Shown here: positions 5,729-55,156 of the stretch, in pieces | Layout: each line of letters opens with the position of its first letter | How positions within the stretch are numbered: position 1 is the stretch's first letter | Assembly (NCBI GenBank): GCA_964644035.1 | Contig: CAZXUH010000002.1 | Location: forward strand, 104,881 to 168,880 | Direction of reading: 5' to 3' | DNA: 64,000 nucleotides | DNA from: an uncultured Candidatus Saccharibacteria bacterium | GTDB taxonomy: Bacteria; Patescibacteriota; Minisyncoccia; Phycocordibacterales; DAORIS01 | The notes under the pieces: model-generated | What the model saw: the letters and a program-made list of their open reading frames with translations, nothing else | What the model was told of the DNA's origin: nothing | The model's database searches: none | Position numbers and translations under genes: made by a program

Positions 5729-6265
5729 ATGACACCACTTGCTCTCAATGCTACATATCTATTCTCGGCCGGGGTAGTGGTACTTCAGATTCTTGCAGTG
5801 GTGGTTTTCTTTCTTCTGATTCAGAAAAAAGAAGTATCTTTTCTTTCTAAAAAATCTTTCCACATTATCTTTTTAACTGCTTTGCTCGCAACGCTCGGCA
5901 GTCTTTTTTATTCTGAAGTCATTGGCTTCGTGCCGTGCAATCTGTGCTGGTATCAGCGAATCTTCATGTATCCTCAGGTTGTCTTGCTTCTTGTAGCGTA
6001 TTGGAAAAAAGATAAGACGATGGTCATCGACTACGTCATGTGGCTATCACTTATTGGTCTGCTTATTGCCGGTTATCATTACTACGGTCAAATGATCAAT
6101 ACTAGCGTCTTGCCGTGCAATTCTCCAGGTATTGGTGCAACGTGCTCTTCACGACCATTTGCGACACTTGGATATATTACGATTCCTATGATGGCTCTTA
6201 CGAGTTTCGTCTCCAACTTTCTTTTGTGCATCTACCACAAAAAGTTTAAAGGTTTCAATTCATAA
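5729..6265 (+). CDS. disulfide bond formation protein B (DsbB/BdbC family)
   Basis: 4-TM protein with the CNLCWYQRI motif (BdbC-type CxxCWYQR) and a second Cys pair (PCNSPGIGATCS). Lies directly downstream of the thioredoxin-fold gene. Confidence 0.75.
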   Translation: MTPLALNATYLFSAGVVVLQILAVVVFFLLIQKKEVSFLSKKSFHIIFLTALLATLGSLFYSEVIGFVPCNLCWYQRIFMYPQVVLLLVAYWKKDKTMVIDYVMWLSLIGLLIAGYHYYGQMINTSVLPCNSPGIGATCSSRPFATLGYITIPMMALTSFVSNFLLCIYHKKFKGFNS

Positions 6266-6277
6266 TCTGAAACCAAT

Positions 6278-6865
6278 ATGTCTTCTCTCATACCACTTAT
6301 CACCAGCTTCGGCTATTTGGGTGTTGGCTTGGTAGTATTTGCCGAATCAGGTTTTCTCTTGGGACTTTTCCTACCAGGCGATTCGCTTCTGATTGCTGTC
6401 GGACTTCTTGCGAGCAAAGGGTTCATGAATATATGGCTTCTTTTGATCATCGTTATCGTCGCGGCAATACTCGGTGACAATTTAGGCTATGCTACTGGCA
6501 GGAGATTTGGCCCCAAGGTCTTTAGTAGAGACGAATCATTCTTTTTTAAAAAAGATTATGTGGCGCGTACCGAAGCCTTTTTCCTTCGTCATGGCGCATT
6601 AGCTATTATTCTTGCTCGATTTACTCCGATCATTAGAACCTTTATACCGATCATGGCTGGAGTCGGTAAAATGCCTTACAAAACATTTCTTATCTGCAAT
6701 ATTGTTGGGGGATTTATTTGGGGTGGTGGAGTACTTCTTGCAGCGTATCTTGCTGGTCTTTATATTCCCGGTTTTGAAAAACACATAGAAACGATTATTA
6801 TTGTGGTGATTGCCGTCTCACTCGTGCCAGCCGTGCTACAATTTATAAAAAGCCGAATAAAATAA
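6278..6865 (+). CDS. DedA/VTT family membrane protein
   Basis: Conserved G(F/Y)[12 protein letters not shown] and ...RF.P..R motifs typical of DedA. Confidence 0.8.
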
Positions 6866-6866
6866 T

Positions 6867-7253
6867 ATGAAAAATTTCGTAAAAGAATTTAGAGAGTTTG
6901 CCATGAGGGGCAATGTTATGGATCTGGCTGTCGGAGTCATTATCGGTGCTGCATTTGGCAAGATTGTCACTTCGCTCGTCAATGATATTGTTATGCCGCT
7001 TATAGGTGTGCTTGTTGGCCGAGTCAATTTCTCTTCACTTACACTCAAATTTGATTCTGTAGAGATCAAATACGGCAGTTTCCTTCAAACAACACTCGAT
7101 TTTCTCATTGTCGCTTTTGTTATATTTCTCGTCATTCACGCTATCAATAAAATAAAAAGAAAGCAGGCAGCGTCAAAAACACCTCCACCACCAGCACCTC
7201 TTACCAAAGAAGAGACTCTACTTACTGAGATTCGCGATCTATTGAAAAAGTAA
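6867..7253 (+). CDS. mscL: large-conductance mechanosensitive channel
   Basis: Near-identical layout to E. coli MscL ([28 protein letters not shown]...[10 protein letters not shown]). Confidence 0.92.
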
Positions 7254-17994: not shown

Positions 17995-18423
17995 ATGTCC
18001 ATAACCGTCAAAATCAAGCGTCTTCATGCCGATGCAAAGCTGCCTTCATATGCGCACTCGGGCGACGCTGGTATGGATATTTTTGCTCAGGAAAAAACAA
18101 TTATTAAAAGGGGCCAGATCGCAAAGATCGGCACTGGTGTTTCGATGGAACTTCCCGAAGGATATGTGGCACTTGTGTGGGATAAAAGCGGTCTTGCTTC
18201 TAACTATGGTCTCAAAAACCTTGGTGGTGTGATCGACGCTGGGTATCGTGGTGAATATTTTATTACGCTCGTCAATCTCGGCAATGAAGACTATACTATC
18301 GATAAGCATCACAAGATTGCCCAAATTCTCATTCAGAAGGTAGAGCATCCGATGCTTGAAGAAGTAGAAGTGCTTAGTGATACGTCGAGGGGACAGGGAG
18401 GATTTGGCAGTACGGGTAAATAA
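17995..18423 (+). CDS. dut: dUTP diphosphatase
   Basis: 142 aa with the dUTPase motifs AGMD(I/L), GVID.GYRGE and the C-terminal SxRGxGGFGSTG. Confidence 0.92.
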   Translation: MSITVKIKRLHADAKLPSYAHSGDAGMDIFAQEKTIIKRGQIAKIGTGVSMELPEGYVALVWDKSGLASNYGLKNLGGVIDAGYRGEYFITLVNLGNEDYTIDKHHKIAQILIQKVEHPMLEEVEVLSDTSRGQGGFGSTGK

Positions 18424-18424
18424 T

Positions 18425-20140
18425 ATGAAAGAAACACTCGAACAGGCATTTGAGGAAATTTTAAAAAAGCTCGGCATTGAAACTCCGAAAATAGTTTTGG
18501 AGCACCCTGATAATCTTGATTTTGGTGATTATACGACCAATGTCGCTCTTGCATACTCAAAAGATCTCAAAGAAAAACCTTTTACACTTGCTCAAAATAT
18601 AGTTGCCGAGCTCGAACATAAGAAAATTAGGCATGTAGAAAAAATATCAATTGCTGGTCCCGGTTTTATCAATATTTCTCTTGATAGAACATTTTTCGCC
18701 GAGGCAACAAAAGACATTCTTTCAAAAGCAGAAACATTTGGCAGCAATACTTCTAAGAAAGGCCAGAAGGTAATTATTGAATACACCAATACCAATGTTC
18801 TCAAGCCTATGCATATTGGTCATTTGATGGGCAATATCATTGGTGAATCGCTCTCAAGACTTTTTGAAAAAAGTGCAGCCGATCTCAAGAGAAACAATTA
18901 TCAAGGCGATGTTGGACTCAATATTGCAAAAGCAATATGGGGTATGCAGAGTCTGATGTCGGAAATGCCAAATGCAAAAGCTAGTCTTGCTGAGAAGACA
19001 CAATATATAGGCAAAGCATATGCAGCAGGTTCGGCAGCCTATGAAGATGATACACATGCTGCAGAAGAAATAAAAAATCTCAACAAACAGCTATTTGAAA
19101 AAAGCGATCTAGACATAAATAAGCTCTATGAATGGGGAAGACAGGCTAGCCTCGATCATTTTGAGGAATTGTATAAGAAGCTTGGAACCAAATTTGATTA
19201 TTATTTCTTTGAAAGCGAAGTGGCCGACGATGCGCTCAAGATTGTTAGAGAATATCTAAAGAAAGGGATTTTTGAAGAAAGTGATGGAGCGATAGTATTT
19301 CATGGAGAGAAATTTGATCCAAAACTGCACACTAGAGTATTTATCAATTCTCAAGGTTTGCCAACATATGAAGCCAAGGATATTGCGCATGCTCTTAGGA
19401 AATATAAAAAATTCCATTTCGACGAATCTATTATTGTCACCGCCAATGAACAAAATGGCTATTTCCAAGTCGTACTACGCGCTTTGCAGGAAATCGATGC
19501 TGATATAGCTCAAAAAACGCATCATCTATCACATGGTCTCTTACAGTTGCCAACAGGAAAAATGGGATCGAGAAAAGGCAATGTCATTACTGGAGAAGCA
19601 CTTATCAATGATGTAGAGGCTTTGGTAAAAGAAAAAATAAAAGACAGAGGATTTGGTAATGAAGAAGCAGAAGGGGTAGTAAGTAGCGTATCAATCGGTG
19701 CTATCAAATATTCTATTCTCAAACAATCACCTGGCAATGATATTATTTTTGATCTTGAAAAATCAGTCTCATTTGAAGGAGATTCTGGTCCGTATTTGCA
19801 ATATGCGTCGGTGCGAGCTGGTTCTCTGCTCACAAAAGCGCTTGAACAGGAAATAAAACCAAAAGTCGGTCTTGTTCCCGAAGAAGTAAGTATTGTAGAA
19901 AAATTGCTCTATCGTTTCCCAGAAATCGTGGAGCGTGCTCTCAATGAACGTGCGCCGCATTATATAGCACTCTATCTGACCCAGGTCGCCGGAGCGTTCA
20001 ATAGTTGGTATGGCAATACAAAAATTATCGATGCCAAGGATCCGTATTCTCAATACAAACTCGCTCTCACACAAGCTACAAAAAATATTTTAGACAGCGG
20101 ACTGTACTTACTAGGTATTGAAGTACCAGAAAAAATGTAA
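18425..20140 (+). CDS. argS: arginine--tRNA ligase (start at the Met directly after the dut stop)
   Basis: Class I motif PMHIGHLMGNIIGE, the ArgRS add-on N-domain and a DALR anticodon-binding C-terminus. Confidence 0.9.
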   Translation: MKETLEQAFEEILKKLGIETPKIVLEHPDNLDFGDYTTNVALAYSKDLKEKPFTLAQNIVAELEHKKIRHVEKISIAGPGFINISLDRTFFAEATKDILSKAETFGSNTSKKGQKVIIEYTNTNVLKPMHIGHLMGNIIGESLSRLFEKSAADLKRNNYQGDVGLNIAKAIWGMQSLMSEMPNAKASLAEKTQYIGKAYAAGSAAYEDDTHAAEEIKNLNKQLFEKSDLDINKLYEWGRQASLDHFEELYKKLGTKFDYYFFESEVADDALKIVREYLKKGIFEESDGAIVFHGEKFDPKLHTRVFINSQGLPTYEAKDIAHALRKYKKFHFDESIIVTANEQNGYFQVVLRALQEIDADIAQKTHHLSHGLLQLPTGKMGSRKGNVITGEALINDVEALVKEKIKDRGFGNEEAEGVVSSVSIGAIKYSILKQSPGNDIIFDLEKSVSFEGDSGPYLQYASVRAGSLLTKALEQEIKPKVGLVPEEVSIVEKLLYRFPEIVERALNERAPHYIALYLTQVAGAFNSWYGNTKIIDAKDPYSQYKLALTQATKNILDSGLYLLGIEVPEKM

Positions 20141-20175
20141 AAAAAGACCCGAGTCGGGGAAGACGACTCGGGTTA

Positions 20176-20305
20176 TTGCTGTACGGCCGGGCGAGCCGTC
20201 AGCGGGGGCAATGGGGGGTAGGAAGGAATGGGATTAAAAGATCGCCGGGGTGTCCCGGAGGGGGGGGAACCGGAACGGGGGAAACCCGGCGATCAATTCC
20301 GTAAA
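20176..20305. ncRNA. GC-rich structured element (candidate small ncRNA or cis-regulatory leader), identity unknown
   Basis: About 130 nt of roughly 70% GC in a roughly 40% GC genome. Contains a 10-bp helix (GATCGCCGGG...CCCGGCGATC) extended by GGAAT/ATTCC pairing, internal G-runs and an upstream 9-bp hairpin. The only ORF in it (20228-20410) is low-complexity and probably spurious. Confidence 0.4.
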
Positions 20306-20419
20306 GAACTATTTGATTACGCTTCTATTATACCATATTCATTTCAATATGCAAGGGGTTCTATAAATAGCAATAAAATGCTTACAAATATGAGAAAAAT
20401 GCTAATATAGCTATATTCT

Positions 20420-23400
20420 ATGGACACGGATGAAAAGAAAAAGAGCGCCGTAGCGCTCCGGGAAGAAGAAACTCTGGCTTTCTGGCAGAAGAATGAACTA
20501 TTTGAAAAAACTCTCAAAAAAGAGTCTCCAAAAGGCGAATATGTCTTTCTCGACGGGCCGCCATTTGCTACAGGTCTGCCACACTACGGTCATATACTAG
20601 CTAGTGCTATCAAAGATACGATTCCGCGTTACAAAACGATGCGAGGTTTCAATGTGCCTCGACGTTGGGGTTGGGATTGTCATGGTCTGCCTATTGAAAC
20701 GATTGTTGAGAAAGATCTCAATGTATCAGGACGTAAACAGATCGAAGAATTAGGGGTGGAGAAATTCAATGAACATGCTCGAAGCAAGGTTTTGACCTTT
20801 GTACATGACTGGAAAAAAACCGTCGATCGTATTGGTCGCTGGGTCAATTTTGACGGTGCATATATGACGATGGACAATTCATATATTGAATCTGTCTGGT
20901 GGGCACTCAAGGAATTGCACAAGAAAGATGCTATCTATGAAAGCACTCGTGTACTACCATACTGTCCGCGCTGTGAAACTCCAATCGCCAATTCCGAAAT
21001 AGCAATGGACAATAGCTACAAAGACATCACTGATATTTCAGTCTATGTAAAATTTGAACTCAAAGACAGACCAAAAACCTATTTATTGGCTTGGACAACA
21101 ACACCATGGACACTTCCTGGCAACTTTGCTCTCGCTGTTAATCCGGAACTGATCTATGTAACTGTCCAAGCAGAAAATGGAGAAAAATATATTGTTGCGA
21201 AAAGTAGATATGAAAAACTAACCGACAAATTTGTCGGCCATACAATTGTAAGTGAAGAAAAGGGAAGTATGCTTGTTGGTAAATCATATAAGCCCGCCTT
21301 TTCATACTTCACCAATACCGAATTTAAAAACAAAGACAAAGTCTGGAAAGTCTATGTTGCAGAATTTGTCACAGACAATGATGGTACGGGTATAGTGCAT
21401 ATTGCTCCAGGATATGGAGAAGACGATATGGCTCTGGCTAAAAAAGAAAACATAGCTTTTATTCATCATGTCACTACTGAGGGTAAATTTGCTTCTACAG
21501 CCACTGACTTTGCTGGGGAGCGTGTAAAGCCAAAAGAAGATCATCAGTCAGGTGATGTGCTTATCATTAAACATCTTGCCAAGGAAAATCTTCTATTTGC
21601 TAAAGAAAAGATTGTTCACTCATATCCGCATTGCTATCGCTGCGAAACGCCGCTTATTTACTACGCTCTCCCCGCTTGGTTTATCAATATTCAGAGTGTA
21701 AAGAAGCAACTGCTAAAAAAGAATGAAGAGATAGACTGGATACCAGAGCATCTCAAGCATGGTCGTTTCGAAAAAAGTATGGAAGGTGCGCCGGATTGGA
21801 ACTTTTCTCGAAATAGATTTTGGGCGTCACCTTTGCCGTTTTGGAAAAGTGCCGATGGAAAAGAATTGGAAGTGATAGGATCTCTTGAAGATCTAAAAAA
21901 GAAAACAAATAGAGGTAATACGTTTTTCTTCATGCGTCACGGTCAGGCGGAGAACAATGCTTCTAATACTCTAAATTCCACACCCAATACTTCGTATGGT
22001 CTTACCGATTTGGGTAAAGAGCAGGTCAAAGTGTCTGCACAACAGCTTAAGAAAAAGAAGATCGATGTTATCTACGCATCAGACTTCACCCGTACCAAAG
22101 AAACTGCCGAAATGGTAGCTCAGAGTATTGGCTATCCAAAAGAAAACATAATCTATGACAAAAGGCTTCGCGAGCTCGATTTCGGTGATCTCGACGGTAA
22201 GAATATTTCAGCATATAGAAATCTTTTCCCTGGGTATGAAGCCGCATTTGAAAAAAATATTCCAGGAGGGGAAAGTCTTCGCAATATCCATCGCCGAGTG
22301 GGGGATTTTATCTATCAAGCCGATGCCGATGCTCGAAATAAAAATATTCTTGTCATATCTCACGAAACACCACTGTGGATGTTGCAGTCGGTAGGTGGAC
22401 ACTTGTCGCAGAAGGAAATCATTGCTATGCGTGCAAGCGGGGAAGAGTTTATAAAAAATGGCGAACTTAGAGAAATTTCATTTGCTCGTATGCCTCACAA
22501 CGCTGACTATGAACTCGATTTTCACCGACCATATATCGATCAGATCTCATGGATGTCATCTTCTGGCAAGCTCATGACTCGTATTCCAGAAGTGATCGAC
22601 TGTTGGTTCGAATCAGGTGCCATGCCTTTTGCTTCAGAACATCGACCTTTCAATCCGGGCAGCACTCGACCGGCCGATTTTGTGGCTGAATATATAGCTC
22701 AAACAAGAACATGGTTTTATTACATGCATGTGTTGTCCGTGCAGCTTTTTGGACAAATACCTTTTAAACATGTGGTGACAACGGGTACGATCTTGGCAAA
22801 AGACGGACAGAAAATGTCGAAGTCAAAAAACAATTTCCCCGATCCATGGATTCTTTTTGATAAATACGGAGTAGACGCAATTCGATATTATTTGATGTCG
22901 TCACCGCTCATGAAATCTGAAGATCTCAATTTCTCAGAAGGGGATGTCGATAGTATTTATAAAAAATTAGTATTGCGTCTTGAAAATGTTCTCTCTTTCT
23001 ACGAATTGTACAAAGACGATTCTATACAAGCGGATAGCAATAGCGATGTGGTCATTGACCAATGGATCATTTCAAGACTCTCAGAAGTCCATGCCAAAGT
23101 GACAAAAGGTCTCGATGAATACGAAGTCGATGCTGCAATCAGACCATTTGATAAGTGTATCGATGATCTATCGACATGGTATTTGCGCAGATCTCGAGAT
23201 CGTCTTAAAGACGATACAAATATCGAAGATAAGAAAAAAGCTCTAGCCACAACCCGTTTTGTTCTTCTCCAGCTTTCGCATTTGTTGGCACCAGTCATGC
23301 CTTTTATCGCTGAACATATTTATCAAAAGACAAAAGATACAAAGCACGGCAAGGAAAGCGTGCATTTGGAAAACTGGCCTCAGGTTGCCGTGGATATTGC

Positions 23401-23863
23401 GTCGACTAAGATTCAAAAAATATTGGTCAATATGGAGACGGTCAGAAATATTGTGTCAGTTGCGCAAGATGCACGTGTCAAAGCAGGTATAAAAGTCAGA
23501 CAGCCACTCGCATCGCTCCATATAAAACAAACTCTTTCTGCAGAATATCTCGATCTTATAAAAGATGAAATCAATGTAAAGAAAGTAGAGGTCAATGAAT
23601 CTCAAGAAGGGGAAGTAGTGCTTGATACGACGATTACTCCAGAACTCAAATCAGAAGGAATCATGCGTGAACTATTGCGATCTATTCAGGACAAGCGCAA
23701 AGAAGCTGGTCTCATGCCGCGCGATATGGCGATAGTAAAAATCCCTCGCAATTCTGAAAATGAAGAAGTAGTCAAGACGTATGAGAAAAATATAAAAGCA
23801 GCTGCCTTTATCAAAGAAATTGCATTTGAAGATAGAGAAGATATATTTGTCGGGAAAATATAA
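20420..23863 (+). CDS. ileS: isoleucine--tRNA ligase carrying an in-frame histidine-phosphatase (PGAM-like) domain insertion
   Basis: HIGH-type PHYGHIL, CP1 editing region, KMSKS (KMSKSKNN) and an anticodon-binding C-terminus. Residues about 495-695 (nt about 21905-22500) form a histidine phosphatase fold: FMRHGQAENN ... VISHETPL. Confidence 0.9.
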   Translation: MDTDEKKKSAVALREEETLAFWQKNELFEKTLKKESPKGEYVFLDGPPFATGLPHYGHILASAIKDTIPRYKTMRGFNVPRRWGWDCHGLPIETIVEKDLNVSGRKQIEELGVEKFNEHARSKVLTFVHDWKKTVDRIGRWVNFDGAYMTMDNSYIESVWWALKELHKKDAIYESTRVLPYCPRCETPIANSEIAMDNSYKDITDISVYVKFELKDRPKTYLLAWTTTPWTLPGNFALAVNPELIYVTVQAENGEKYIVAKSRYEKLTDKFVGHTIVSEEKGSMLVGKSYKPAFSYFTNTEFKNKDKVWKVYVAEFVTDNDGTGIVHIAPGYGEDDMALAKKENIAFIHHVTTEGKFASTATDFAGERVKPKEDHQSGDVLIIKHLAKENLLFAKEKIVHSYPHCYRCETPLIYYALPAWFINIQSVKKQLLKKNEEIDWIPEHLKHGRFEKSMEGAPDWNFSRNRFWASPLPFWKSADGKELEVIGSLEDLKKKTNRGNTFFFMRHGQAENNASNTLNSTPNTSYGLTDLGKEQVKVSAQQLKKKKIDVIYASDFTRTKETAEMVAQSIGYPKENIIYDKRLRELDFGDLDGKNISAYRNLFPGYEAAFEKNIPGGESLRNIHRRVGDFIYQADADARNKNILVISHETPLWMLQSVGGHLSQKEIIAMRASGEEFIKNGELREISFARMPHNADYELDFHRPYIDQISWMSSSGKLMTRIPEVIDCWFESGAMPFASEHRPFNPGSTRPADFVAEYIAQTRTWFYYMHVLSVQLFGQIPFKHVVTTGTILAKDGQKMSKSKNNFPDPWILFDKYGVDAIRYYLMSSPLMKSEDLNFSEGDVDSIYKKLVLRLENVLSFYELYKDDSIQADSNSDVVIDQWIISRLSEVHAKVTKGLDEYEVDAAIRPFDKCIDDLSTWYLRRSRDRLKDDTNIEDKKKALATTRFVLLQLSHLLAPVMPFIAEHIYQKTKDTKHGKESVHLENWPQVAVDIASTKIQKILVNMETVRNIVSVAQDARVKAGIKVRQPLASLHIKQTLSAEYLDLIKDEINVKKVEVNESQEGEVVLDTTITPELKSEGIMRELLRSIQDKRKEAGLMPRDMAIVKIPRNSENEEVVKTYEKNIKAAAFIKEIAFEDREDIFVGKI

Positions 23864-23869
23864 AAGCGT

Positions 23870-24430
23870 ATGCATCGCATTTACAGCAGCATGGCACTTG
23901 TCGTCGAAAGCCGACCATATAGCGAAGCTGATCGGATGATTACTTGCTATACACGCGAATACGGTCTTATAAGTGCTGTTGCAAAAAGCGTGCGACTTGA
24001 GAAATCAAAACTACGTTATGCGCTGGCGCTCTACAGTATGTCGGAAATATCTTTGGTCAAAGGCAAAGAAATTTGGCGACTGACAAGTGCTATATATGAA
24101 AAAAGTTTCAGCGCCAATGCACAGGCAGTCAAAAAAATTCTTTCGACACTCAAAAGATTGATAGGGGAAGAAATACCTGATCAGTTTCTTTTTGATGCAC
24201 TGCGCGCATATCTCGAATACATGCATCAGAAAGGCGAAATCGATGCCAAAGCTGCTGAAGTAGGTATTATGCTCCACATCCTCAATCGTTCGGGATATCT
24301 GCAGGCCTCAATCCCGCTGGCAGATTTTCTATCCACACCATTTGCCCCCGAGAAACTAGGAGACGTCGCTATCCACAAAAAGGAGGCTATAGGGCTGATA
24401 AATCAAGCTCTAGAGCACGCGCATTTATAG
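23870..24430 (+). CDS. recO: DNA repair protein RecO (short form)
   Basis: N-terminal OB-fold pattern (ALVVESRPYSEADRMITCYTREYGLISAVAKS...); size and position match the short CPR RecO. Moderate confidence. Confidence 0.5.
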   Translation: MHRIYSSMALVVESRPYSEADRMITCYTREYGLISAVAKSVRLEKSKLRYALALYSMSEISLVKGKEIWRLTSAIYEKSFSANAQAVKKILSTLKRLIGEEIPDQFLFDALRAYLEYMHQKGEIDAKAAEVGIMLHILNRSGYLQASIPLADFLSTPFAPEKLGDVAIHKKEAIGLINQALEHAHL

Positions 24431-50985: not shown

Positions 50986-51741
50986 GTTCAAGTAAGACAT
51001 GGTCTTTGACAACTGAATCCTGCGACAATACTCAAACTCAAAATTTGAAATGGTGTCGAACACCGTATTGGACGCAGATTGAATTGATTGTAGGTAATTG
51101 AAGTTATATAAAATTTTCTCCTTGTCAGGCTAGTAACTTGGCGAGGGGGTCTTTCATTTTATGTAACAGGATAAAGTAGAATATAAGATTGTGGTTCTTA
51201 CATTTCCTAATAAGGAAATTAAGGGCATATGGTGGATGCCTTGACTCTACATGGCGATGAAGGACGCAGCATGGCGGCGATACGCTTCGGGGAGGTGCCT
51301 AGCAACCTTTGATCCGAAGATGTCCGAATGGGGTAACCCCTCTGTTAATCAGAGACGTACGCACATTAGCGTACGTGCATACCCAGGGAAGTAAAACATT
51401 TCAGTACCTGGAGGAATAGAAACCAATTGGTATTTCCTTAGTAGCGGCGAGCGAAAAGGAAGAAGCTCAAACTCAGCTCTCAACTTTGTTATTGGAGATT
51501 TATTTTTCCAATTCAAAGTTGATAGCTGGGGGTTGTAAGGTAGCAGCGTGATTTTTAAAATCAGAAAAGTTACAAAACAAATTGTTAGAAGAACAACCTG
51601 GAAAGGTTGACCATAGTGGGTAATAGTCCCGTATTTGAAAATAATTTGTCTTTTCAGTTGTTATTCTTGAGTACTTCGAGACACGAGTGGCTCGGAGGAA
51701 TCTGCCGGAACTAACCGGTAAAGCTAAATACATGTAGAGAT

Positions 51742-51778
<37 letters not shown>

Positions 51779-52353
51779 AAGCCCGGAAGGGCAGTGAAAT
51801 AGAACTGAAACCATATGTCTACAAGGAGTCGATGCGGGTATTTATATCCGCTACGGCGTGCCTATTGAAGAATGAGCCAACGAGTTGATGCATAGTGTAC
51901 GCTAAGGGCGAGAGCCTGGAGCGATAGGGAAACCGAGTGTTAATAGCGCGCCTATACTATTCATCAGACCCGAAACCAGAGCGAGCTAATTATGAGCAGG
52001 GTGAACTTCAGAGAAATCTGGAGGGAGGCCCGAACGGTTGAGCCGTGCAATACTCTCCGATGACTTGTGATTAGAAGTGAAAAGCTAACCGAGCCTGGTA
52101 ATAGCTGGTTCTCTCCGAAATAGCTTTTGGGCTAGCGTCATGTGTTCCCCTCGGGGGTAGAGCACTGGAAGGTCTCGACAGGGAGAAATCTCGCGAGACC
52201 TATCAAACTCCGAATACCGAGGATTAAAAGCGTGGCAGTTAGACTGTGGGGGCTAAGCTCCATTGGTCAAAAGGGAAACAGCCCGGATCTCAATTTAAGG
52301 TCCCTAAATCTATGCTAAGTGCACTTAAGGTAGTGTTTCGTCTATGACACTGA

Positions 52354-52385
<32 letters not shown>

Positions 52386-53189
52386 GAAAGCGTAACAGCT
52401 CACTCAGTAAGACGCGATGCGCCGAAGATAATCGGGGCTAAGCATAGTACCGAAACTGAGGATTGTACATTTTTTCGAATTTGTACACTGGTAGGAGAGT
52501 TTTCTTGTCTGCGATGAAGGCAAAGGGGTGACCCATGCTGGAGCGTCAAGAAGTAAGAATGTTGGCACAAGTAACCACAAGGTTTGTGAAAACCAAACCC
52601 GCCGAAAGAACAAGGTTTCCTTCGCGATGACAATCAGCGAAGGGTAAGTCGGGCCTAAGGCAATGACGAGAGTCGCAGCCGATGGACACACGGTTAATAT
52701 TCCGTGACTTTTATTGCAAGTGATGGGAGGACGGAGTGTAGTATGTATCGCGCATTATTGGATTTGACGTTCGTGTTCTGAGTGTGGCTTCCTGGCAAAT
52801 CCGGAAGCGGCCGCAAGGCGCACACAAGGAAAGCGAAAATGCTCAGGGCTTGCTCTGAGTAAATGATACAAAGCACGCTTCCAAGAAAAGTCTCTAAACT
52901 TATTGTAATGAAAACCGTACCGCAAACCGACACAGGTGTTCAGCTCGAGTAGAGCAAGGCGAACGGGTGAGGGGTCTCCAAGGAACTCGGCAAAAAAGCA
53001 GCCGTAACTTCGGAATAAGGCTTGCCTTCAGCAATGAAGGCCGCAGCTAAAGTATGCTTGGCAACTGTTTATCAAAAACACAGCTCCCTGCGAACTCGCA
53101 AGAGGATGTATAGGGGGTGACACTTGACCAATGCCAGAAGGTCAAACGTTGGCGGTGAGATTATATCAAGCTGACTGATGTAAGCCCTG

Positions 53190-53224
<35 letters not shown>

Positions 53225-53536
53225 TCTCTGTTGATACAGGTGTAAATATCTGGATGAACAGAGAAGGATTGGGGCTGTTATATGTTTGTGAATTGATAAC
53301 AAAAGGAGCCGTAATATGTCATAGAAAGAGGAATTAATTAAAAACGCTACCCTTCATGAGTGATCATGAAGTCCAAAACTGACTGTATGTGTACAATCTA
53401 CTTAAGATTGCTACGCAGGAAAGACTCGAATATTCGAAAGAATGATCGAGAATCCCCAGAGACCAGACGTCAGGCTAGATCGCAAGGTCTAGTAAGAAAG
53501 AGTCCATACTCAATAGCAATATTGAGCTTATAATAG
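53225..53536 (+). other. ORF-less group I intron in 23S rRNA at E. coli position L1931 (312 nt)
   Basis: Interrupts GGTCCTAAGGT|AGCGAAATTCC. The 5' exon ends in U and the intron ends in G. R-like (CAGAGACCAG) and S-like (AAGAAAGAGTCC) core elements are present. Confidence 0.7.
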
Positions 53537-54199
53537 AGCGAAATTCCTTGTCAGGTAAGTTCTGACGCGCACGAATAGTGTAATGACTGAGCAACTGTCT
53601 CGGAGACTCGCCCGGTGAAAATACAATACCGGTGAAGATGCCGGTTACCTGCAGATAGACGAAAAGACCCTAGAAGCTTTACTACAACTTGGTATTGAGC
53701 GTATGTTTTTACTGCGTAGCATAGAGGTGAGACTTTGAAGTTTCGTTTTCGGATGAAATGGAGTCGTCAGTGAAATAGCCTTCTGTCAAAATATACGTTC
53801 TAACCTCGAGGGAAAAAACCGCGAGAGACAGTATCTGGTGGGTAGTTTTAGTGGGGCGCTATCCTCCTAAAAAGTAACGGAGGAGTTTATTAAGGTCAGC
53901 TAACCGCGAATGGAAACCGTGGTAATAGTGTAATGGCACAAGCTGGCTTAACTGTAAGACGTACTTGTCGAGCAGATGCGAAAGCAGAACATAGTGAACC
54001 GACCATACGCGTTAGATGCGGTGGAAGATTATCGGACAAAAGCTACTCTAGGGATAACAGGCTGGTACTGCCTAAGAGTCCATATCGACGGCAGTGTTCG
54101 GCACCTCGATGTCGGCTCATCTTATCCTGGGGGCGGAGAAGCTCCCAAGGGTTTGGCTGTTCGCCAATTAAAAAGATACGCGAGCTGGGTTCAGACCGT

Positions 54200-54649
54200 T
54201 AAGGAGCTATTTAGATTGCTTCTTAAAAACAGTATTTTCGAAATGCACGCATAATTTTCTGTTGAAAATTTGCTCCTGCTCGGCCTCACGGCCTGTGCAA
54301 GGCATTTCTCAAACATGTTTTTAAGTTGTATAAATAGCGGCTCTTTAACAGTCTGAATCCCGAGGAAACTTTCACTAAACGTATTTCATGCATATTCATT
54401 TATGCGAGTACGTGATACCCAGAAGAAAGTCTGTTACTAACCATATTCACGGCGGTTATTCGAAGTAATTCGTATAACTCAAAACACAACTAATATCGGT
54501 AAAACCCGGGAGGGCAATACCGAGAGAACTCACAAATTTATTTTGTGAGGCTCGTAGAGACTAAACGTTGTGCTCCTCTGATTTCTATTAATATGAAGTT
54601 TGAGGATGAAGCTATAGTCCAATGCCCGGAGCAATCTGGGAAAAACATG
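54200..54649 (+). other. ORF-less group I intron in 23S rRNA at E. coli position L2593 (450 nt)
   Basis: Interrupts AGACCGT|CGTGAGACAG. The intron ends in G. R-like (GTAGAGACTAAA) and S-like (GAAGCTATAGTCC) core elements are present. Confidence 0.7.
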
Positions 54650-55038
54650 CGTGAGACAGGTTGGTCTCCTATCTACTGCAGGCGTTGATTCTTGAGGAGA
54701 TTTGTCTTTAGTACGAGAGGACCGAGATGAACTGACCTCTGGTCTGGGAGCTCTGCCGCCAGGTGGACCGCTCCGTAGCTATGTCAGGCACAGATAACCT
54801 CTGAATGCATCTAAGAGGGAAGCTGTCTCCAAGATGAGGAATCGTTTAGACTCCTGAGAGATGATCAGGTTGATAGGCACTAGGTGTACGCATAGTAATA
54901 TGTTGAGCCGAGGTGTACTAATAAGTCGATTCTTATTAGGAAATGTGTGAATTACATCTTACGTTAGAACTTTATCCTGTTACATGGAATGAAATTCCAT
55001 GAGAGACAGTATTTACAATCAATTTAGTATTTGAATTT

Positions 55039-55156
55039 TCTGTTCTGGTGGTTTGTCGCGGGGGTCACACCTGATCTCATTCCGAACTCAGAAGTTAAGC
55101 CCCGTTGAGGCGATGATATCCTTATGGAGGGGAAAGTAGCTAGCCGCCGGTACAGA
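55039..55156 (+). rRNA. rrf: 5S ribosomal RNA
   Basis: CCTGATCTCATTCCGAACTCAGAAGTTAAGCC core. Helix I pairs TCTGTTCTGGTGG with CCGCCGGTACAGA. Confidence 0.85.

What the first reader, a model, noticed from the sequence alone, without database searches (positions are those of the whole stretch)
21905..22500. Isoleucyl-tRNA synthetase with an inserted histidine-phosphatase (PGAM-like) domain
ileS (20420-23863) encodes a continuous 1147-aa protein with bona fide IleS sequence on both sides. Upstream of the insert are the HIGH motif, the CP1 editing region and ...FWASPLPFWKSADGKELEVIGSLEDL. Downstream are DFHRPYIDQISW..., KMSKS and the anticodon-binding domain. Between them sit about 200 extra residues. 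The insert has the two catalytic signatures of the histidine phosphatase superfamily branch 1 (PGAM/SixA/PhoE): FMRHGQAENN (RHG phospho-acceptor His) and VISHETPL (second catalytic His). Canonical bacterial IleS has only about 30-40 aa here. This is a domain acquisition inside an essential aaRS, with catalytic residues retained, and I do not recognise it as a described architecture. The phosphatase could act on a nucleotide such as Ap4A, (p)ppGpp or a phospho-tRNA intermediate, or it could regulate aminoacylation.
Basis: partly seen in the sequence, partly recalled or inferred. Interest (0 to 1): 0.8.

Follow-up and report, generated by a model that had tools for sequence, protein, structure and literature searches.

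The report
Histidine phosphatase inserted inside IleRS
The isoleucyl-tRNA synthetase of this Patescibacteria (CPR) genome carries a complete, apparently active histidine-phosphatase enzyme spliced into a loop of its catalytic domain. In relatives that lack the insertion, the same phosphatase is nearly always a separate gene directly upstream of ileS, which points to an unrecognised partnership between the two enzymes.

Summary
ORF 20420-23863 (+) is one continuous 1147-aa type-2 IleRS that passes the TIGR00392 cut-off. Residues ~498-690 (nt 21911-22489) are a full His_Phos_1 domain (Pfam E 8e-32). They replace a 5-6-residue loop in the CP3 subdomain.

It is not an assembly chimera:
- The same architecture occurs in at least 80 verified species genomes (515 or more candidates).
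- It occurs in 148 of the 150 best 50%-identity cluster representatives.
- It occurs in 119 of the 120 closest homologues, all Patescibacteria/Paceibacteria.

Catalytic residues R506, H507, R558 and H648 are invariant in 118/118 orthologues, and E585 in 117/118. The rest of the insert evolves faster than the IleRS body.

New here: the insert equals a whole free-standing ~190-aa gene. In insert-less relatives that gene lies between argS and ileS. IleRS was found directly downstream in 47 of 58 free-standing metagenomic loci; the other 11 end or hold other small ORFs before it could be seen. No locus has both forms. Trees indicate repeated free/inserted transitions.

The parts
20420..23863 (+). 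ileS: a continuous 1147-aa type-2 isoleucyl-tRNA synthetase with an inserted domain (stop codon included)
   Evidence: ORF listing. TIGR00392 scores 840.7 bits, above the 621.4 cut-off. AF2 model has pLDDT 92 and pTM 0.86. Best structural matches are IleRS2 8C8V, yeast IleRS 8WND and T. thermophilus 1ILE.
20420..21910 (+). IleRS N-terminal part (res 1-497): first half of the Rossmann fold, CP core, CP1 editing domain, CP2, and the N-terminal half of CP3
   Evidence: Pfam tRNA-synt_1 covers 18-499. Alignment to 1ILE 395-481 and 7D5C 407-493. CP nomenclature follows PMC7955072 and PMC7191050.
20582..20593 (+). HIGH motif (HYGH, res 55-58)
   Evidence: Read from the sequence. H55 and H58 are invariant in 118 orthologues.
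21092..21124 (+). Editing-domain Thr-rich motif WTTTPWTLPGN (res 225-235)
   Evidence: Read from the sequence. W225, T226, T227, T228, P229 and W230 are invariant.
21788..21826 (+). CP2-3 linker APDWNFSRNRFWA (res 457-469). It is homologous to the yeast IleRS linker 453-465 that lines the tRNA A76 / reveromycin pocket.
21911..22489 (+). Inserted histidine-phosphatase (His_Phos_1) domain, res 498-690. It is equivalent to a complete free-standing ~190-aa gene.
21935..21943 (+). RHG motif (R506, H507, G508). H507 is the predicted phospho-acceptor.
   Evidence: Aligned to the RH of PspA. R506 and H507 are present in 118/118 orthologues.
22091..22093 (+). R558, the second phosphate-binding Arg
   Evidence: 118/118. 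Aligned to the conserved RT motif of PspA.
22172..22174 (+). E585, the predicted proton donor (motif LRELDFGDLDG)
   Evidence: 117/118, with one Asp. Aligned to the Glu of PspA 'IIEIDHG'.
22361..22363 (+). H648, the second catalytic His (motif VISHETP)
   Evidence: 118/118. Aligned to PspA 'VVSHTVP'.
22490..23860 (+). IleRS C-terminal part (res 691-1147): C-terminal half of CP3, second half of the Rossmann fold with KMSKS (nt 22811-22825), anticodon-binding domain, and C-terminal DUF5915 domain
18377..20140 (+). argS (arginyl-tRNA synthetase), the conserved upstream neighbour. In relatives the free phosphatase gene lies between argS and ileS.
   Evidence: ORF listing. Synteny in L001, L082, L087, L088 and most of the metagenomic loci.
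23870..24430 (+). recO, the conserved downstream neighbour
   Evidence: Pfam RecO_N and RecO_C. Synteny.

Best explanation
What is shown. A complete branch-1 histidine-phosphatase gene of ~190 aa has been spliced in frame into the middle of the CP3 subdomain of a housekeeping type-2 IleRS. In related Patescibacteria the same gene is a separate ORF in the operon argS-hp-ileS-recO. The enzyme body keeps its HIGH, KMSKS and editing motifs. The insert folds as an independent, confidently modelled domain on short linkers. It keeps every catalytic residue of the family.

What is inferred, step 1. The domain is an active phosphomonoesterase that works through a phospho-His507 intermediate. It is an accessory partner of IleRS, not part of the aminoacylation chemistry, because close relatives lack it.

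What is inferred, step 2. Three things suggest its job benefits from being made with, and held next to, the IleRS catalytic domain: it is genetically tied to ileS in every state (adjacent or inserted, never both), it has moved between those states more than once, and it sits ~30 residues after the linker that lines the A76/adenylate pocket.

What is inferred, step 3 (weakest). The substrate is a small phosphorylated molecule, most plausibly nucleotide-like. It could be a by-product, or an inhibitory analogue, handled at the synthetic site. A protein substrate looks less likely.

Origin (inference only). A tandem duplication of hp-ileS followed by in-frame deletions would place the upstream gene inside the downstream one without ever losing a functional ileS.
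For: Architecture and its reality:
- establish the ORF, the domains and the insertion point.
- 69 of 81 genome loci give one full-length in-frame HSP through the insert.
- 148 of 150 cluster representatives carry the domain.
- 119 of 120 best homologues carry PF00300. The window protein itself is found on 5 contigs from NCBI and Logan.

Active enzyme:
- R506, H507, R558, R626 and H648 are 118/118, and E585 is 117/118.
- Meanwhile the insert's mean pairwise identity is only 38.5%, against 62% for the IleRS body.
- The catalytic residues align to PspA.

Fold:
- Insert-only model pLDDT 95.3.
- In the full-length model, pLDDT across the insert and both linkers is 92-97 apart from one block at 81, and pTM is 0.86.

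Coupling to IleRS:
- The free homologues P0019, P0012, P0026 and P0015 all lie directly upstream of insert-less ileS genes that pass TIGR00392.
- The metagenome scan gave 58 free and 22 inserted loci. IleRS lies directly downstream in 47 of the free loci. None of the remaining 11 offers enough sequence to contradict this.
- None of 170 loci, nor the 64-kb window, has both forms.

Repeated transitions:
- Fused P0004 pairs with free L084 at 100% bootstrap.
- The window pairs with insert-less P0297 at 83% bootstrap.

Location: CP3, next to the CP2-3 linker of the A76 pocket.

Theme: other IleRS variants carry NUDIX, GNAT, Ser_hydrolase or a second His_Phos_1 domain.
Against: - No activity or substrate has been measured.
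Whether the phosphatase active site faces the IleRS synthetic site or the tRNA path is therefore unknown.
- argS and recO are also conserved neighbours of ileS with no obvious functional link. Adjacency alone may reflect operon inertia in these genomes.
- P0297 lacks the domain both in cis and immediately upstream, so it is dispensable in at least one lineage.
- The closest characterised folds are ordinary metabolic phosphatases. All NCBIfam equivalog models score below their cut-offs, so no specific substrate class is supported.
- I could not check whole genomes for a second ileS or a second phosphatase copy.
- The trees are NJ only. The count of 7-10 transitions is probably inflated.
Confidence: 0.5

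Rival explanations
1. Passenger fusion. The phosphatase is an ordinary metabolic, broad-specificity enzyme (PhoE/GpmB/PspA-like) with no mechanistic link to IleRS. It sits next to ileS through operon inertia. It was captured into a permissive surface loop (CP3), and it is kept only because its own housekeeping activity is needed.
For: - The closest folds are metabolic phosphatases.
- recO and argS are equally conserved neighbours with no known link to IleRS.
- CP3 tolerates other inserts such as Ser_hydrolase and GNAT, and its topology varies among IleRSs.
- P0297 functions without the insert.
- The insert evolves faster than the IleRS body.
Against: - The gene lies between argS and ileS, and sometimes overlaps the argS stop codon. 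Even so, every fusion seen is with IleRS and always in the same CP3 loop.
- At least two well-supported independent free/inserted transitions occurred.
- The two states are strictly mutually exclusive at the locus level.
- The linkers are short and confidently modelled, and pTM is high, which suggests a fixed orientation and not a loose tether.
- Inserting a neighbour into the middle of an essential gene is a rare multi-step event. It is unlikely to become fixed repeatedly without some benefit.
Confidence: 0.3
2. tRNA-end phosphatase. The domain removes a 2'/3'-phosphate, or a (pyro)phosphate, from the A76 end of tRNA(Ile). Such ends could arise from nuclease cleavage or from toxin-mediated pyrophosphorylation. 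Removal would license the tRNA for charging on the same enzyme.
For: - The insert lies in CP3, ~30 residues after the linker that lines the A76 pocket.
- A terminal phosphomonoester is within the chemistry of the family (established knowledge).
- A distant free homologue sits next to an HD_4 gene, which is SpoT- or small-alarmone-hydrolase-like.
- Toxin-antitoxin-like genes are wedged into some hp-ileS loci.
Against: - The fold is closest to capped small-molecule phosphatases.
- No RNA-end phosphatase is known to me in this family.
- The HD_4 neighbour belongs to a homologue outside the IleRS-linked clade, at 31-33% identity.
- The geometry relative to the tRNA path was not testable here.
Confidence: 0.1
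3. Protein phosphatase. The domain dephosphorylates IleRS itself, for example a Ser in or near the KMSKS loop targeted by HipA-like toxin kinases. Alternatively it dephosphorylates another phosphoprotein, or a phospho-His protein, as SixA, PGAM5 and the MutT1 C-terminal domain do.
For: - Family precedents exist: SixA, PGAM5, Sts, and MutT1 acting on histidine kinases and NDK (papers listed).
- aaRS phosphorylation by toxin kinases is known (my own knowledge, not tested here).
- The domain is attached to the catalytic domain.
Against: - The domain retains the two-helix cap region (H596-602 and H606-611). On general knowledge of the family I associate such a cap with small-molecule enzymes.
- There is no kinase in the conserved neighbourhood.
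Confidence: 0.07
4. Catalytically dead structural module, or an artefact. Either the insert merely stabilises CP3, replacing the lost zinc knuckle, or the ORF is an assembly chimera.
For: The window protein has lost the four Cys of the CP3 zinc knuckle.
Against: - All catalytic residues are invariant across 118 orthologues.
- 49 of 118 fused orthologues keep the zinc-knuckle Cys together with the insert.
- The architecture recurs in hundreds of independent assemblies, and the identical protein is found on 5 contigs.
- There is no compositional break across the insert.
Confidence: 0.03

Closest known systems
Type-2 (eukaryote-like, mupirocin-resistant type) IleRS, e.g. T. thermophilus IleRS (1ILE), Priestia megaterium IleRS2 (8C8V) and yeast IleRS (7D5C, 8WND)
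   Same: - Same enzyme family and domain order: Rossmann fold, CP core, CP1 editing domain, CP2, CP3, anticodon-binding domain and a C-terminal junction domain.
- HIGH, KMSKS and editing motifs are intact.
- TM-score normalised to the target is 0.80-0.89.
- TIGR00392 is passed.
   Different: - A 193-residue enzyme domain replaces the 5-6-residue CP3 loop.
- The CP3 zinc-knuckle cysteines present in T. thermophilus IleRS are lost in the window protein.
Small-molecule branch-1 histidine phosphatases: PspA phosphoserine phosphatase (4IJ5), PhoE (1H2E), glucosyl-3-phosphoglycerate phosphatase (6S2Q) and CobC (6E4B)
   Same: - Same catalytic Arg-His...Arg...Glu...His set.
- The 'E-x-D-F-G' motif of the phosphatase-type members is present, not the mutase-type motif.
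   Different: - Sequence identity is only 21-25%.
- It scores below the cut-off of every NCBIfam equivalog for these enzymes.
- It is embedded inside another enzyme, or, when free, is dedicated to the argS-hp-ileS operon.
- The substrate is unknown.
NCBIfam NF040702 'ileS_w_GNAT' (IleRS containing an N-acetyltransferase domain)
   Same: It is a bacterial IleRS that has acquired an extra catalytic domain. Some Patescibacteria IleRSs carry both GNAT and His_Phos_1 (P0194, P0203).
   Different: The window protein has no GNAT domain. It scores 321.9 bits against a cut-off of 1999. The extra domain belongs to a different superfamily.
CP1 editing domain of IleRS, ValRS and LeuRS
   Same: It is a precedent for a hydrolytic domain inserted into the Rossmann fold of a class Ia synthetase, one that acts on a product of the synthetic site.
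   Different: CP1 is universal, ancient and acts on aminoacyl esters. This insert is clade-specific and recently mobile. It has a phosphatase fold, lies in CP3, and has no demonstrated link to aminoacylation products.
Multidomain proteins with a His_Phos_1 module: Rv2228c RNase H/acid phosphatase (NF005567) and mycobacterial MutT1 (Nudix plus histidine phosphatase)
   Same: - A His_Phos_1 module is combined with a nucleic-acid or nucleotide enzyme.
- The C-terminal half of NF005567 is the best NCBIfam hit to the insert.
- P0145 combines IleRS, NUDIX and His_Phos_1.
   Different: - Those are end-to-end fusions, not insertions into a loop.
- The score is far below the cut-off, at 88.9 against 326 bits.

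Membership tests
Histidine phosphatase superfamily, branch 1 (Pfam PF00300 His_Phos_1) | Profile match above Pfam's gathering score | tested here: met
   110.9 bits within the whole protein and 115.9 bits for the insert alone, against a gathering score of 21.7.
Histidine phosphatase superfamily, branch 1 (Pfam PF00300 His_Phos_1) | RHG motif supplying the nucleophilic His and its adjacent Arg | tested here: met
   R506-H507-G508 aligns to the RH of PspA 4IJ5. R and H are 118/118 and G is 115/118.
Histidine phosphatase superfamily, branch 1 (Pfam PF00300 His_Phos_1) | Second Arg, acid/base Glu and second His completing the phosphate pocket | tested here: met
   R558 is 118/118, E585 is 117/118 and H648 is 118/118. 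Each aligns to the corresponding PspA position.
Histidine phosphatase superfamily, branch 1 (Pfam PF00300 His_Phos_1) | Alpha/beta fold of the superfamily | tested here: met
   [not shown]
Histidine phosphatase superfamily, branch 1 (Pfam PF00300 His_Phos_1) | Phosphoryl transfer through a phospho-histidine intermediate (enzymatic activity) | not testable with these tools
   Requires biochemistry.
Cofactor-dependent phosphoglycerate mutase (dPGM) | Match to the dPGM equivalog models above their cut-offs | tested here: not met
   dPGM_arch scores 86.6 against 225, pgm_1 scores 42.8 against 81.7, and the PRK14115-14120 models score 16-36 against 305-421. The motif after the catalytic Glu is LDFGDLDG, the phosphatase-type pattern (sequence; the assignment of the pattern is from my own knowledge of the family).
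Specific characterised phosphatases (PspA, CobC, GpmB, SixA, acid phosphatase PRK13462) | Equivalog model score at or above the curated cut-off | tested here: not met
   PspA scores 65.9 against 350, cobC 81.3 against 162.9, GpmB 66.2 against 261, and sixA 40.1 against 74.5.
Isoleucyl-tRNA synthetase (TIGR00392 ileS) | Equivalog model score at or above the cut-off | tested here: met
   840.7 bits against 621.4, split into two stretches by the insert.
Isoleucyl-tRNA synthetase (TIGR00392 ileS) | Class I signature motifs HIGH and KMSKS, and CP1 editing motifs | tested here: met
   HYGH at 55-58, KMSKS at 798-802, WTTTPWTLPGN at 225-235 and GTGIVHIAPGYGEDD at 322-336. The key residues are invariant across 118 orthologues.
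Isoleucyl-tRNA synthetase (TIGR00392 ileS) | Aminoacylation of tRNA(Ile) | not testable with these tools
   Inferred from intact motifs and from orthologous synteny (argS-ileS-recO) shared with insert-less IleRS.
Type-2 IleRS (IleRS2, eukaryote-like) | Closer in sequence and structure to IleRS2 and eukaryotic IleRS than to type-1 IleRS | tested here: met
   Foldseek identity and E-values are 29-32% and 1e-66 to 2e-81 for IleRS2, yeast and T. thermophilus. They are 19-22% and 1e-46 to 7e-55 for type-1 IleRS from P. megaterium, H. pylori and S. aureus. The best partial NCBIfam hits are MupA and MupB.
Acquired mupirocin-resistance IleRS (MupA / MupB) | 'Exception' model score at or above 1900 bits | tested here: not met
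   694.9 and 639.2 bits against 1900.
ileS_w_GNAT (NF040702) | Model score at or above 1999 bits; GNAT domain present | tested here: not met
   321.9 bits, and no GNAT Pfam hit in the window protein.

The most novel reading that the evidence does not exclude
IleRS in Patescibacteria may act as an 'armoured' synthetase. On this reading it serves as a docking platform for a changing set of small detoxifying or repair enzymes: the histidine phosphatase (nearly universal in one large clade, and operon-linked elsewhere), plus GNAT, NUDIX and alpha/beta-hydrolase modules in other lineages. These enzymes would act on molecules that attack the isoleucyl-adenylate / tRNA-A76 site, such as aminoacyl-nucleotide antibiotics, toxic nucleotides or toxin-modified tRNA ends. 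This would be analogous to the MccE, MccF and HinT immunity enzymes against microcin C. If so, the phosphatase is a built-in immunity or repair activity for an essential translation enzyme in organisms that live as episymbionts under chemical warfare.
Probability: 0.12. Interest if true: 0.9.

Novelty: new variant of a known kind. Interest (0 to 1): 0.68.

Why it matters
Aminoacyl-tRNA synthetases are among the most conserved enzymes known. Acquiring a second, catalytically intact enzyme inside the catalytic domain is rare, and in bacteria it is almost undocumented.

This acquisition is not a one-off. It characterises the IleRS of a large part of the Paceibacteria/Parcubacteria radiation, across hundreds of species. 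It also comes with an independent line of evidence for functional partnership: the same phosphatase is an operon neighbour of ileS wherever it is not inserted, the two states exclude one another, and they have interconverted.

That is a classic Rosetta-stone signal. It predicts an interaction or shared pathway between IleRS and a phosphatase, which to my knowledge no current model of aminoacylation includes. The prediction is directly testable with recombinant proteins.

The finding also has a practical side. Fragments of these genes are annotated as 'PhoE' or 'gpmB / K15634 phosphoglycerate mutase'. Automated metabolic reconstructions of CPR genomes could therefore be credited with a glycolytic enzyme they may not have.

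Finally, the locus offers a natural series (free gene, inserted domain, clean loss) for studying how domains enter and leave essential genes.

Tried and rejected
1. Assembly chimera or frameshift artefact. Rejected: the ORF is continuous, GC is flat, the identical protein sits on 5 contigs, and the architecture is found in hundreds of genomes.

2. Phosphoglycerate mutase identity. Rejected: all dPGM models score far below their cut-offs.

3. An N-terminal HP-IleRS fusion in L121. My first script flagged it, but translation shows a stop codon after the phosphatase. L121 is free-standing.

4. First bootstrap run. It gave meaningless low supports because the Kimura correction produced NaNs. I redid it with capped distances. 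An earlier Biopython bootstrap timed out.

5. First regex-based ORF check. It missed many loci, so I replaced it with tblastn/blastp.

6. The search for related loci with the 7-sequence alignment A2 failed because there was no conserved stretch. I repeated it with the closer 4-sequence alignment A3.

7. Defence-system link. There are no PADLOC hits. The only PHROG hit is an uncharacterised His_Phos family.

8. T-box or other leader RNA between argS and ileS. Nothing scored above chance. The promoter/terminator scan was unremarkable apart from a hairpin after argS.

9. Measuring the distance and orientation between the phosphatase and IleRS active sites. This was not possible because model coordinates are not exposed in /data.

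10. Literature. Nine full-text searches and the AARS Online catalogue paper gave no description of an IleRS-phosphatase architecture. The library excludes most subscription journals, so absence there is not proof of absence.

11. MutT1-like Nudix plus phosphatase analogy. I kept it only as a distant analogy. The window protein has no Nudix domain, and the MutT1 phosphatase domain is a weaker structural neighbour.
Full report
**Observation**

The window holds a single continuous ORF at 20420-23863 on the + strand, encoding 1147 aa. Base composition is flat across it.

Pfam finds these domains:
- tRNA-synt_1, split into two stretches;
- His_Phos_1 at residues 503-657 (E 8.2e-32, 110.9 bits, gathering score 21.7);
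- Anticodon_1;
- DUF5915.

The NCBIfam ileS equivalog TIGR00392 is passed at 840.7 bits against a cut-off of 621.4. MupA, MupB and ileS_w_GNAT are far below their cut-offs.

HIGH (HYGH 55-58), KMSKS (798-802) and the CP1 editing motifs are intact. They are invariant in orthologues.

In a phmmer alignment to the solved phosphoserine phosphatase PspA (4IJ5) they fall on the catalytic Arg-His and on the second His. R558 and E585 fall on the second Arg and the acid/base Glu.

**Where exactly the insert sits**

Aligning residues 411-780 to solved IleRS sequences shows where homology breaks. It stops at residue ~497 and resumes at ~699. That corresponds to T. thermophilus IleRS 481->488 and yeast IleRS 493->499.

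According to the yeast and Candida IleRS structure papers, this loop is in the middle of the CP3 subdomain:
- In yeast, CP3 is residues 459-526.
- The preceding CP2-3 linker (453-465) lines the pocket that binds tRNA A76 and reveromycin A (PMC7955072).
- CP3 varies in topology among IleRSs and carries a zinc knuckle in T. thermophilus (PMC7191050).

The window protein has lost those four cysteines. 49 of 118 insert-bearing orthologues keep them.

**Not a chimera, and widespread**

- A junction-spanning query found fragments from independent assemblies with IleRS sequence on both sides of a His_Phos_1 domain.
The best 80 all span both junctions. They come from Campbell-, Taylor-, Nomura-, Vogel-, Lloyd- and Yonathbacteria and other Paceibacteria/Parcubacteria.
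- 69 of 81 loci give one full-length in-frame HSP to the window IleRS straight through the insert, at 41-54% identity. The rest are cut by contig ends or frameshifts.
- An exhaustive HMMER search of 1.84 billion cluster representatives returned 148 of the best 150 with the insert-like domain. Complete ones are typically 1150-1200 aa.
- The full-length search found the window protein itself at 100% identity (on 5 contigs, from NCBI and Logan). 119 of the best 120 homologues carry PF00300. They are annotated only as 'isoleucine--tRNA ligase' or 'class I tRNA ligase family protein'.

**Is the domain alive?**

Across 118 full-length orthologues at 54-61% identity to the window protein:
- R506, H507, R558, R626 and H648 are invariant.
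- E585 is 117/118 and N513 is 113/118.
- The insert as a whole is much less conserved than the synthetase body. Mean pairwise identity is 38.5% against 62%, and mean column entropy is 2.1 bits against 0.8-1.3 bits for the catalytic core and CP regions.

Fixed catalytic residues on a fast-evolving scaffold are what an active enzyme domain looks like. A decaying passenger or a purely structural spacer would not show this pattern.

Structure predictions:
- AlphaFold2 with this alignment gives pLDDT 92 and pTM 0.86. The 10-residue blocks across the insert and both linkers are 92-97, except one at 81.
- The whole model matches type-2 and eukaryote-like IleRS best.
- The insert modelled alone has pLDDT 95.3.
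- The protein phosphatases of the fold rank lower: SixA 16.1, PGAM5 14.8, Sts-2 14.5 and the MutT1 C-terminal domain 14.2.
- No NCBIfam equivalog for any characterised member is passed, so the subfamily has no assigned substrate.

**The main new result: the insert is a relocated neighbour gene**

The closest free-standing relatives of the insert are complete ~190-aa proteins. Their first and last residues coincide with the insert boundaries, from ~5 residues before RHG to the strand '...GELRE..'.

All four whose context I could read lie directly upstream of an insert-less ileS that passes TIGR00392 in one stretch. Three of them show argS upstream:
- L082: ArgRS, hp, a 208-aa ORF, IleRS, RecO.
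- L087: ArgRS, hp, IleRS starting 2 nt after the hp stop, RecO.
- L088: ArgRS, hp, IleRS.
- L084: hp, IleRS.

The window has the same argS-ileS-recO synteny, with hp inside ileS instead.

A metagenome scan seeded with the free form returned 80 loci: 22 CP3-inserted and 58 free.
- Of the free ones, 47 have IleRS directly downstream. In most the gap to the IleRS match is only tens of nucleotides, with a range of 6-1119 nt.
- 6 end within 82 nt of the hp stop.
- 5 hold other small ORFs, including toxin-antitoxin-like genes, before the contig ends.
- None with enough sequence lacks ileS.
- ArgRS lies upstream in all but one of the free loci that have more than a few hundred nt of upstream sequence.

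No locus among 170, nor the 64-kb window, carries both a free and an inserted copy. Every fusion seen is with IleRS and in the same loop. This holds even though hp lies between argS and ileS and sometimes overlaps the argS stop codon.

**Evolutionary dynamics**

In an NJ tree of the phosphatase, the ileS-adjacent free genes group together inside the radiation of inserted domains:
- The fused Nealsonbacteria fragment P0004 pairs with the free L084 gene at 100% bootstrap. They share 59% identity, against 37-41% to the window insert.
- The clade of free genes plus P0004 gets 69%.

In an NJ tree of the IleRS body with insert columns removed, neither state is monophyletic:
- Fitch parsimony needs 7-10 changes across 300 bootstrap trees. 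This is probably inflated by NJ noise.
- The window's closest relative is the insert-less P0297, at 66% body identity and 83% bootstrap.

P0297 has a short loop and an intact zinc knuckle at the site. It has neither hp nor argS immediately upstream. The domain has therefore entered or left ileS more than once, or been exchanged by recombination, and it can be lost.

A route that never inactivates ileS would be a tandem duplication of hp-ileS followed by in-frame deletions. That is my inference and is not tested.

**Mechanism**

Shown:
- architecture and insertion site;
- conservation of the catalytic machinery;
- independent folding of the insert;
- operon and fusion linkage to ileS;
- dispensability in one lineage.

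Inferred:
- The domain is an active phosphomonoesterase and an accessory partner of IleRS.
- Its function gains from co-production with, and proximity to, the IleRS catalytic domain.
- The fold neighbours favour a small phosphorylated substrate. I consider a nucleotide-like compound handled at the synthetic site the most plausible.

This last step is weak. I could not obtain model coordinates to see whether the phosphatase pocket faces the adenylate/A76 site.

Rivals:
- The main rival is a passenger fusion of an ordinary metabolic phosphatase (0.3).
- tRNA-end repair (0.1) and protein dephosphorylation (0.07) are possible but less supported.
- Dead-domain or artefact readings are effectively excluded.

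**Context noticed on the way**

Other Patescibacteria IleRSs carry further catalytic modules next to the phosphatase:
- a second His_Phos_1 (P0071, P0088);
- NUDIX (P0145);
- GNAT (P0194, P0203);
- Ser_hydrolase inside CP3 (P0020).

NCBIfam already recognises an IleRS-with-GNAT family. IleRS in this group thus looks like a hub for small hydrolase and transferase domains.

This is the basis for the most novel reading I cannot exclude: a synthetase with built-in detoxification or repair enzymes. The resemblance to microcin C immunity enzymes comes from my own knowledge and is a lead, not a test.

**Comparison with what is known, and novelty**

- The host enzyme is a member of IleRS, type 2.
- The insert is a member of His_Phos_1 branch 1, but of no characterised subfamily.
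- Inserted hydrolytic domains in class Ia synthetases (CP1) and extra domains on synthetases are known kinds.
- An intact histidine phosphatase inside CP3, and its operon-linked free form, are not described in any paper I could find. The sequences sit unremarked in public databases.

I therefore rate it a new variant of a known kind, with interest 0.68. It would surprise synthetase specialists, and it gives a directly testable prediction of an IleRS-phosphatase partnership. Its function is still unknown, and a passenger explanation remains viable.

Noticed in passing
window 51209-54939 (+), with 5S rRNA at 55044-55152: The 23S rRNA match spans 3731 nt against a 2925-nt model, so the gene holds ~800 nt of insertions. 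There is no ORF of 150 aa or more inside it, and no intron family was reported at gathering threshold. No 16S rRNA was found in the window.
   Followed up: no
P0071, P0088, P0145, P0194, P0203 (cluster representatives) and P0020: Other Patescibacteria IleRS variants carry additional catalytic domains: a second His_Phos_1, NUDIX, GNAT (next to the phosphatase, or in the CP1 region), and a Ser_hydrolase inserted in CP3 just after HRPYID. IleRS appears to be a hub for domain accretion in this group.
   Followed up: partly
L089 8001-9111 and L090 6961-8071: A more distant free-standing homologue (P0038, 31-33% identity) is not next to ileS. It lies immediately upstream of an HD_4 (SpoT / small-alarmone-hydrolase-like) gene, in a context that includes an archaeal-type AdoMet synthase and an F420 ligase.
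   Followed up: no
L132 ~5872-7130, L142 ~1334-1610, L149 ~2393-2650: In some loci, small toxin-antitoxin-like ORFs (a RelE/ParE-like sequence and a possible antitoxin) are wedged downstream of the free phosphatase gene, before the contig ends. The RelE/ParE assignment is by eye only.
   Followed up: no
window 21839-21862 and 22547-22570 (res 474-481 and 710-717): The CP3 zinc-knuckle ligands (CxxC...CxC in T. thermophilus IleRS, P0002 and P0297) are replaced by KSADG and MSSSG in the window protein. 49 of 118 insert-bearing orthologues still have the cysteines, so loss of zinc binding is independent of the insertion.
   Followed up: partly
L001 4745-8243: In a 61-kb ENA contig with the same synteny, the fused ileS is called as three ORFs of 431, 526 and 205 aa. 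These are probably frameshift errors in the assembly and not a split gene.
   Followed up: no
P0005, P0007, P0027: Fragments of the fused gene are annotated by their sources as 'COG0406 K15634' (gpmB, probable phosphoglycerate mutase) or 'broad specificity phosphatase PhoE'. Automated metabolic reconstructions of CPR genomes may count this IleRS insert as a glycolytic mutase.
   Followed up: no
L082 8663-9289 and L083 7695-8309: A conserved ORF of 204-208 aa with no Pfam or PHROG match sits between the free phosphatase gene and ileS in one lineage. Several metagenomic loci also have 386-1119 nt of extra sequence at this position.
   Followed up: no
window 20141-20419: The 279-nt argS-ileS spacer is unusually G-rich (GC up to 0.48) and has a strong hairpin right after argS (20147-20173). 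It contains a 60-aa ORF (20228-20410) with no family match, and shows no Rfam hit above chance and no remnant of a phosphatase gene.
   Followed up: partly
P0022 and P0027: A divergent IleRS lineage ('class I tRNA ligase family protein, Patescibacteria group', 32 member sequences) has a longer (~235-240 aa) and much more divergent phosphatase-like insert at the same CP3 position. It has an RHG motif, but alignment around the catalytic Glu is uncertain.
   Followed up: no
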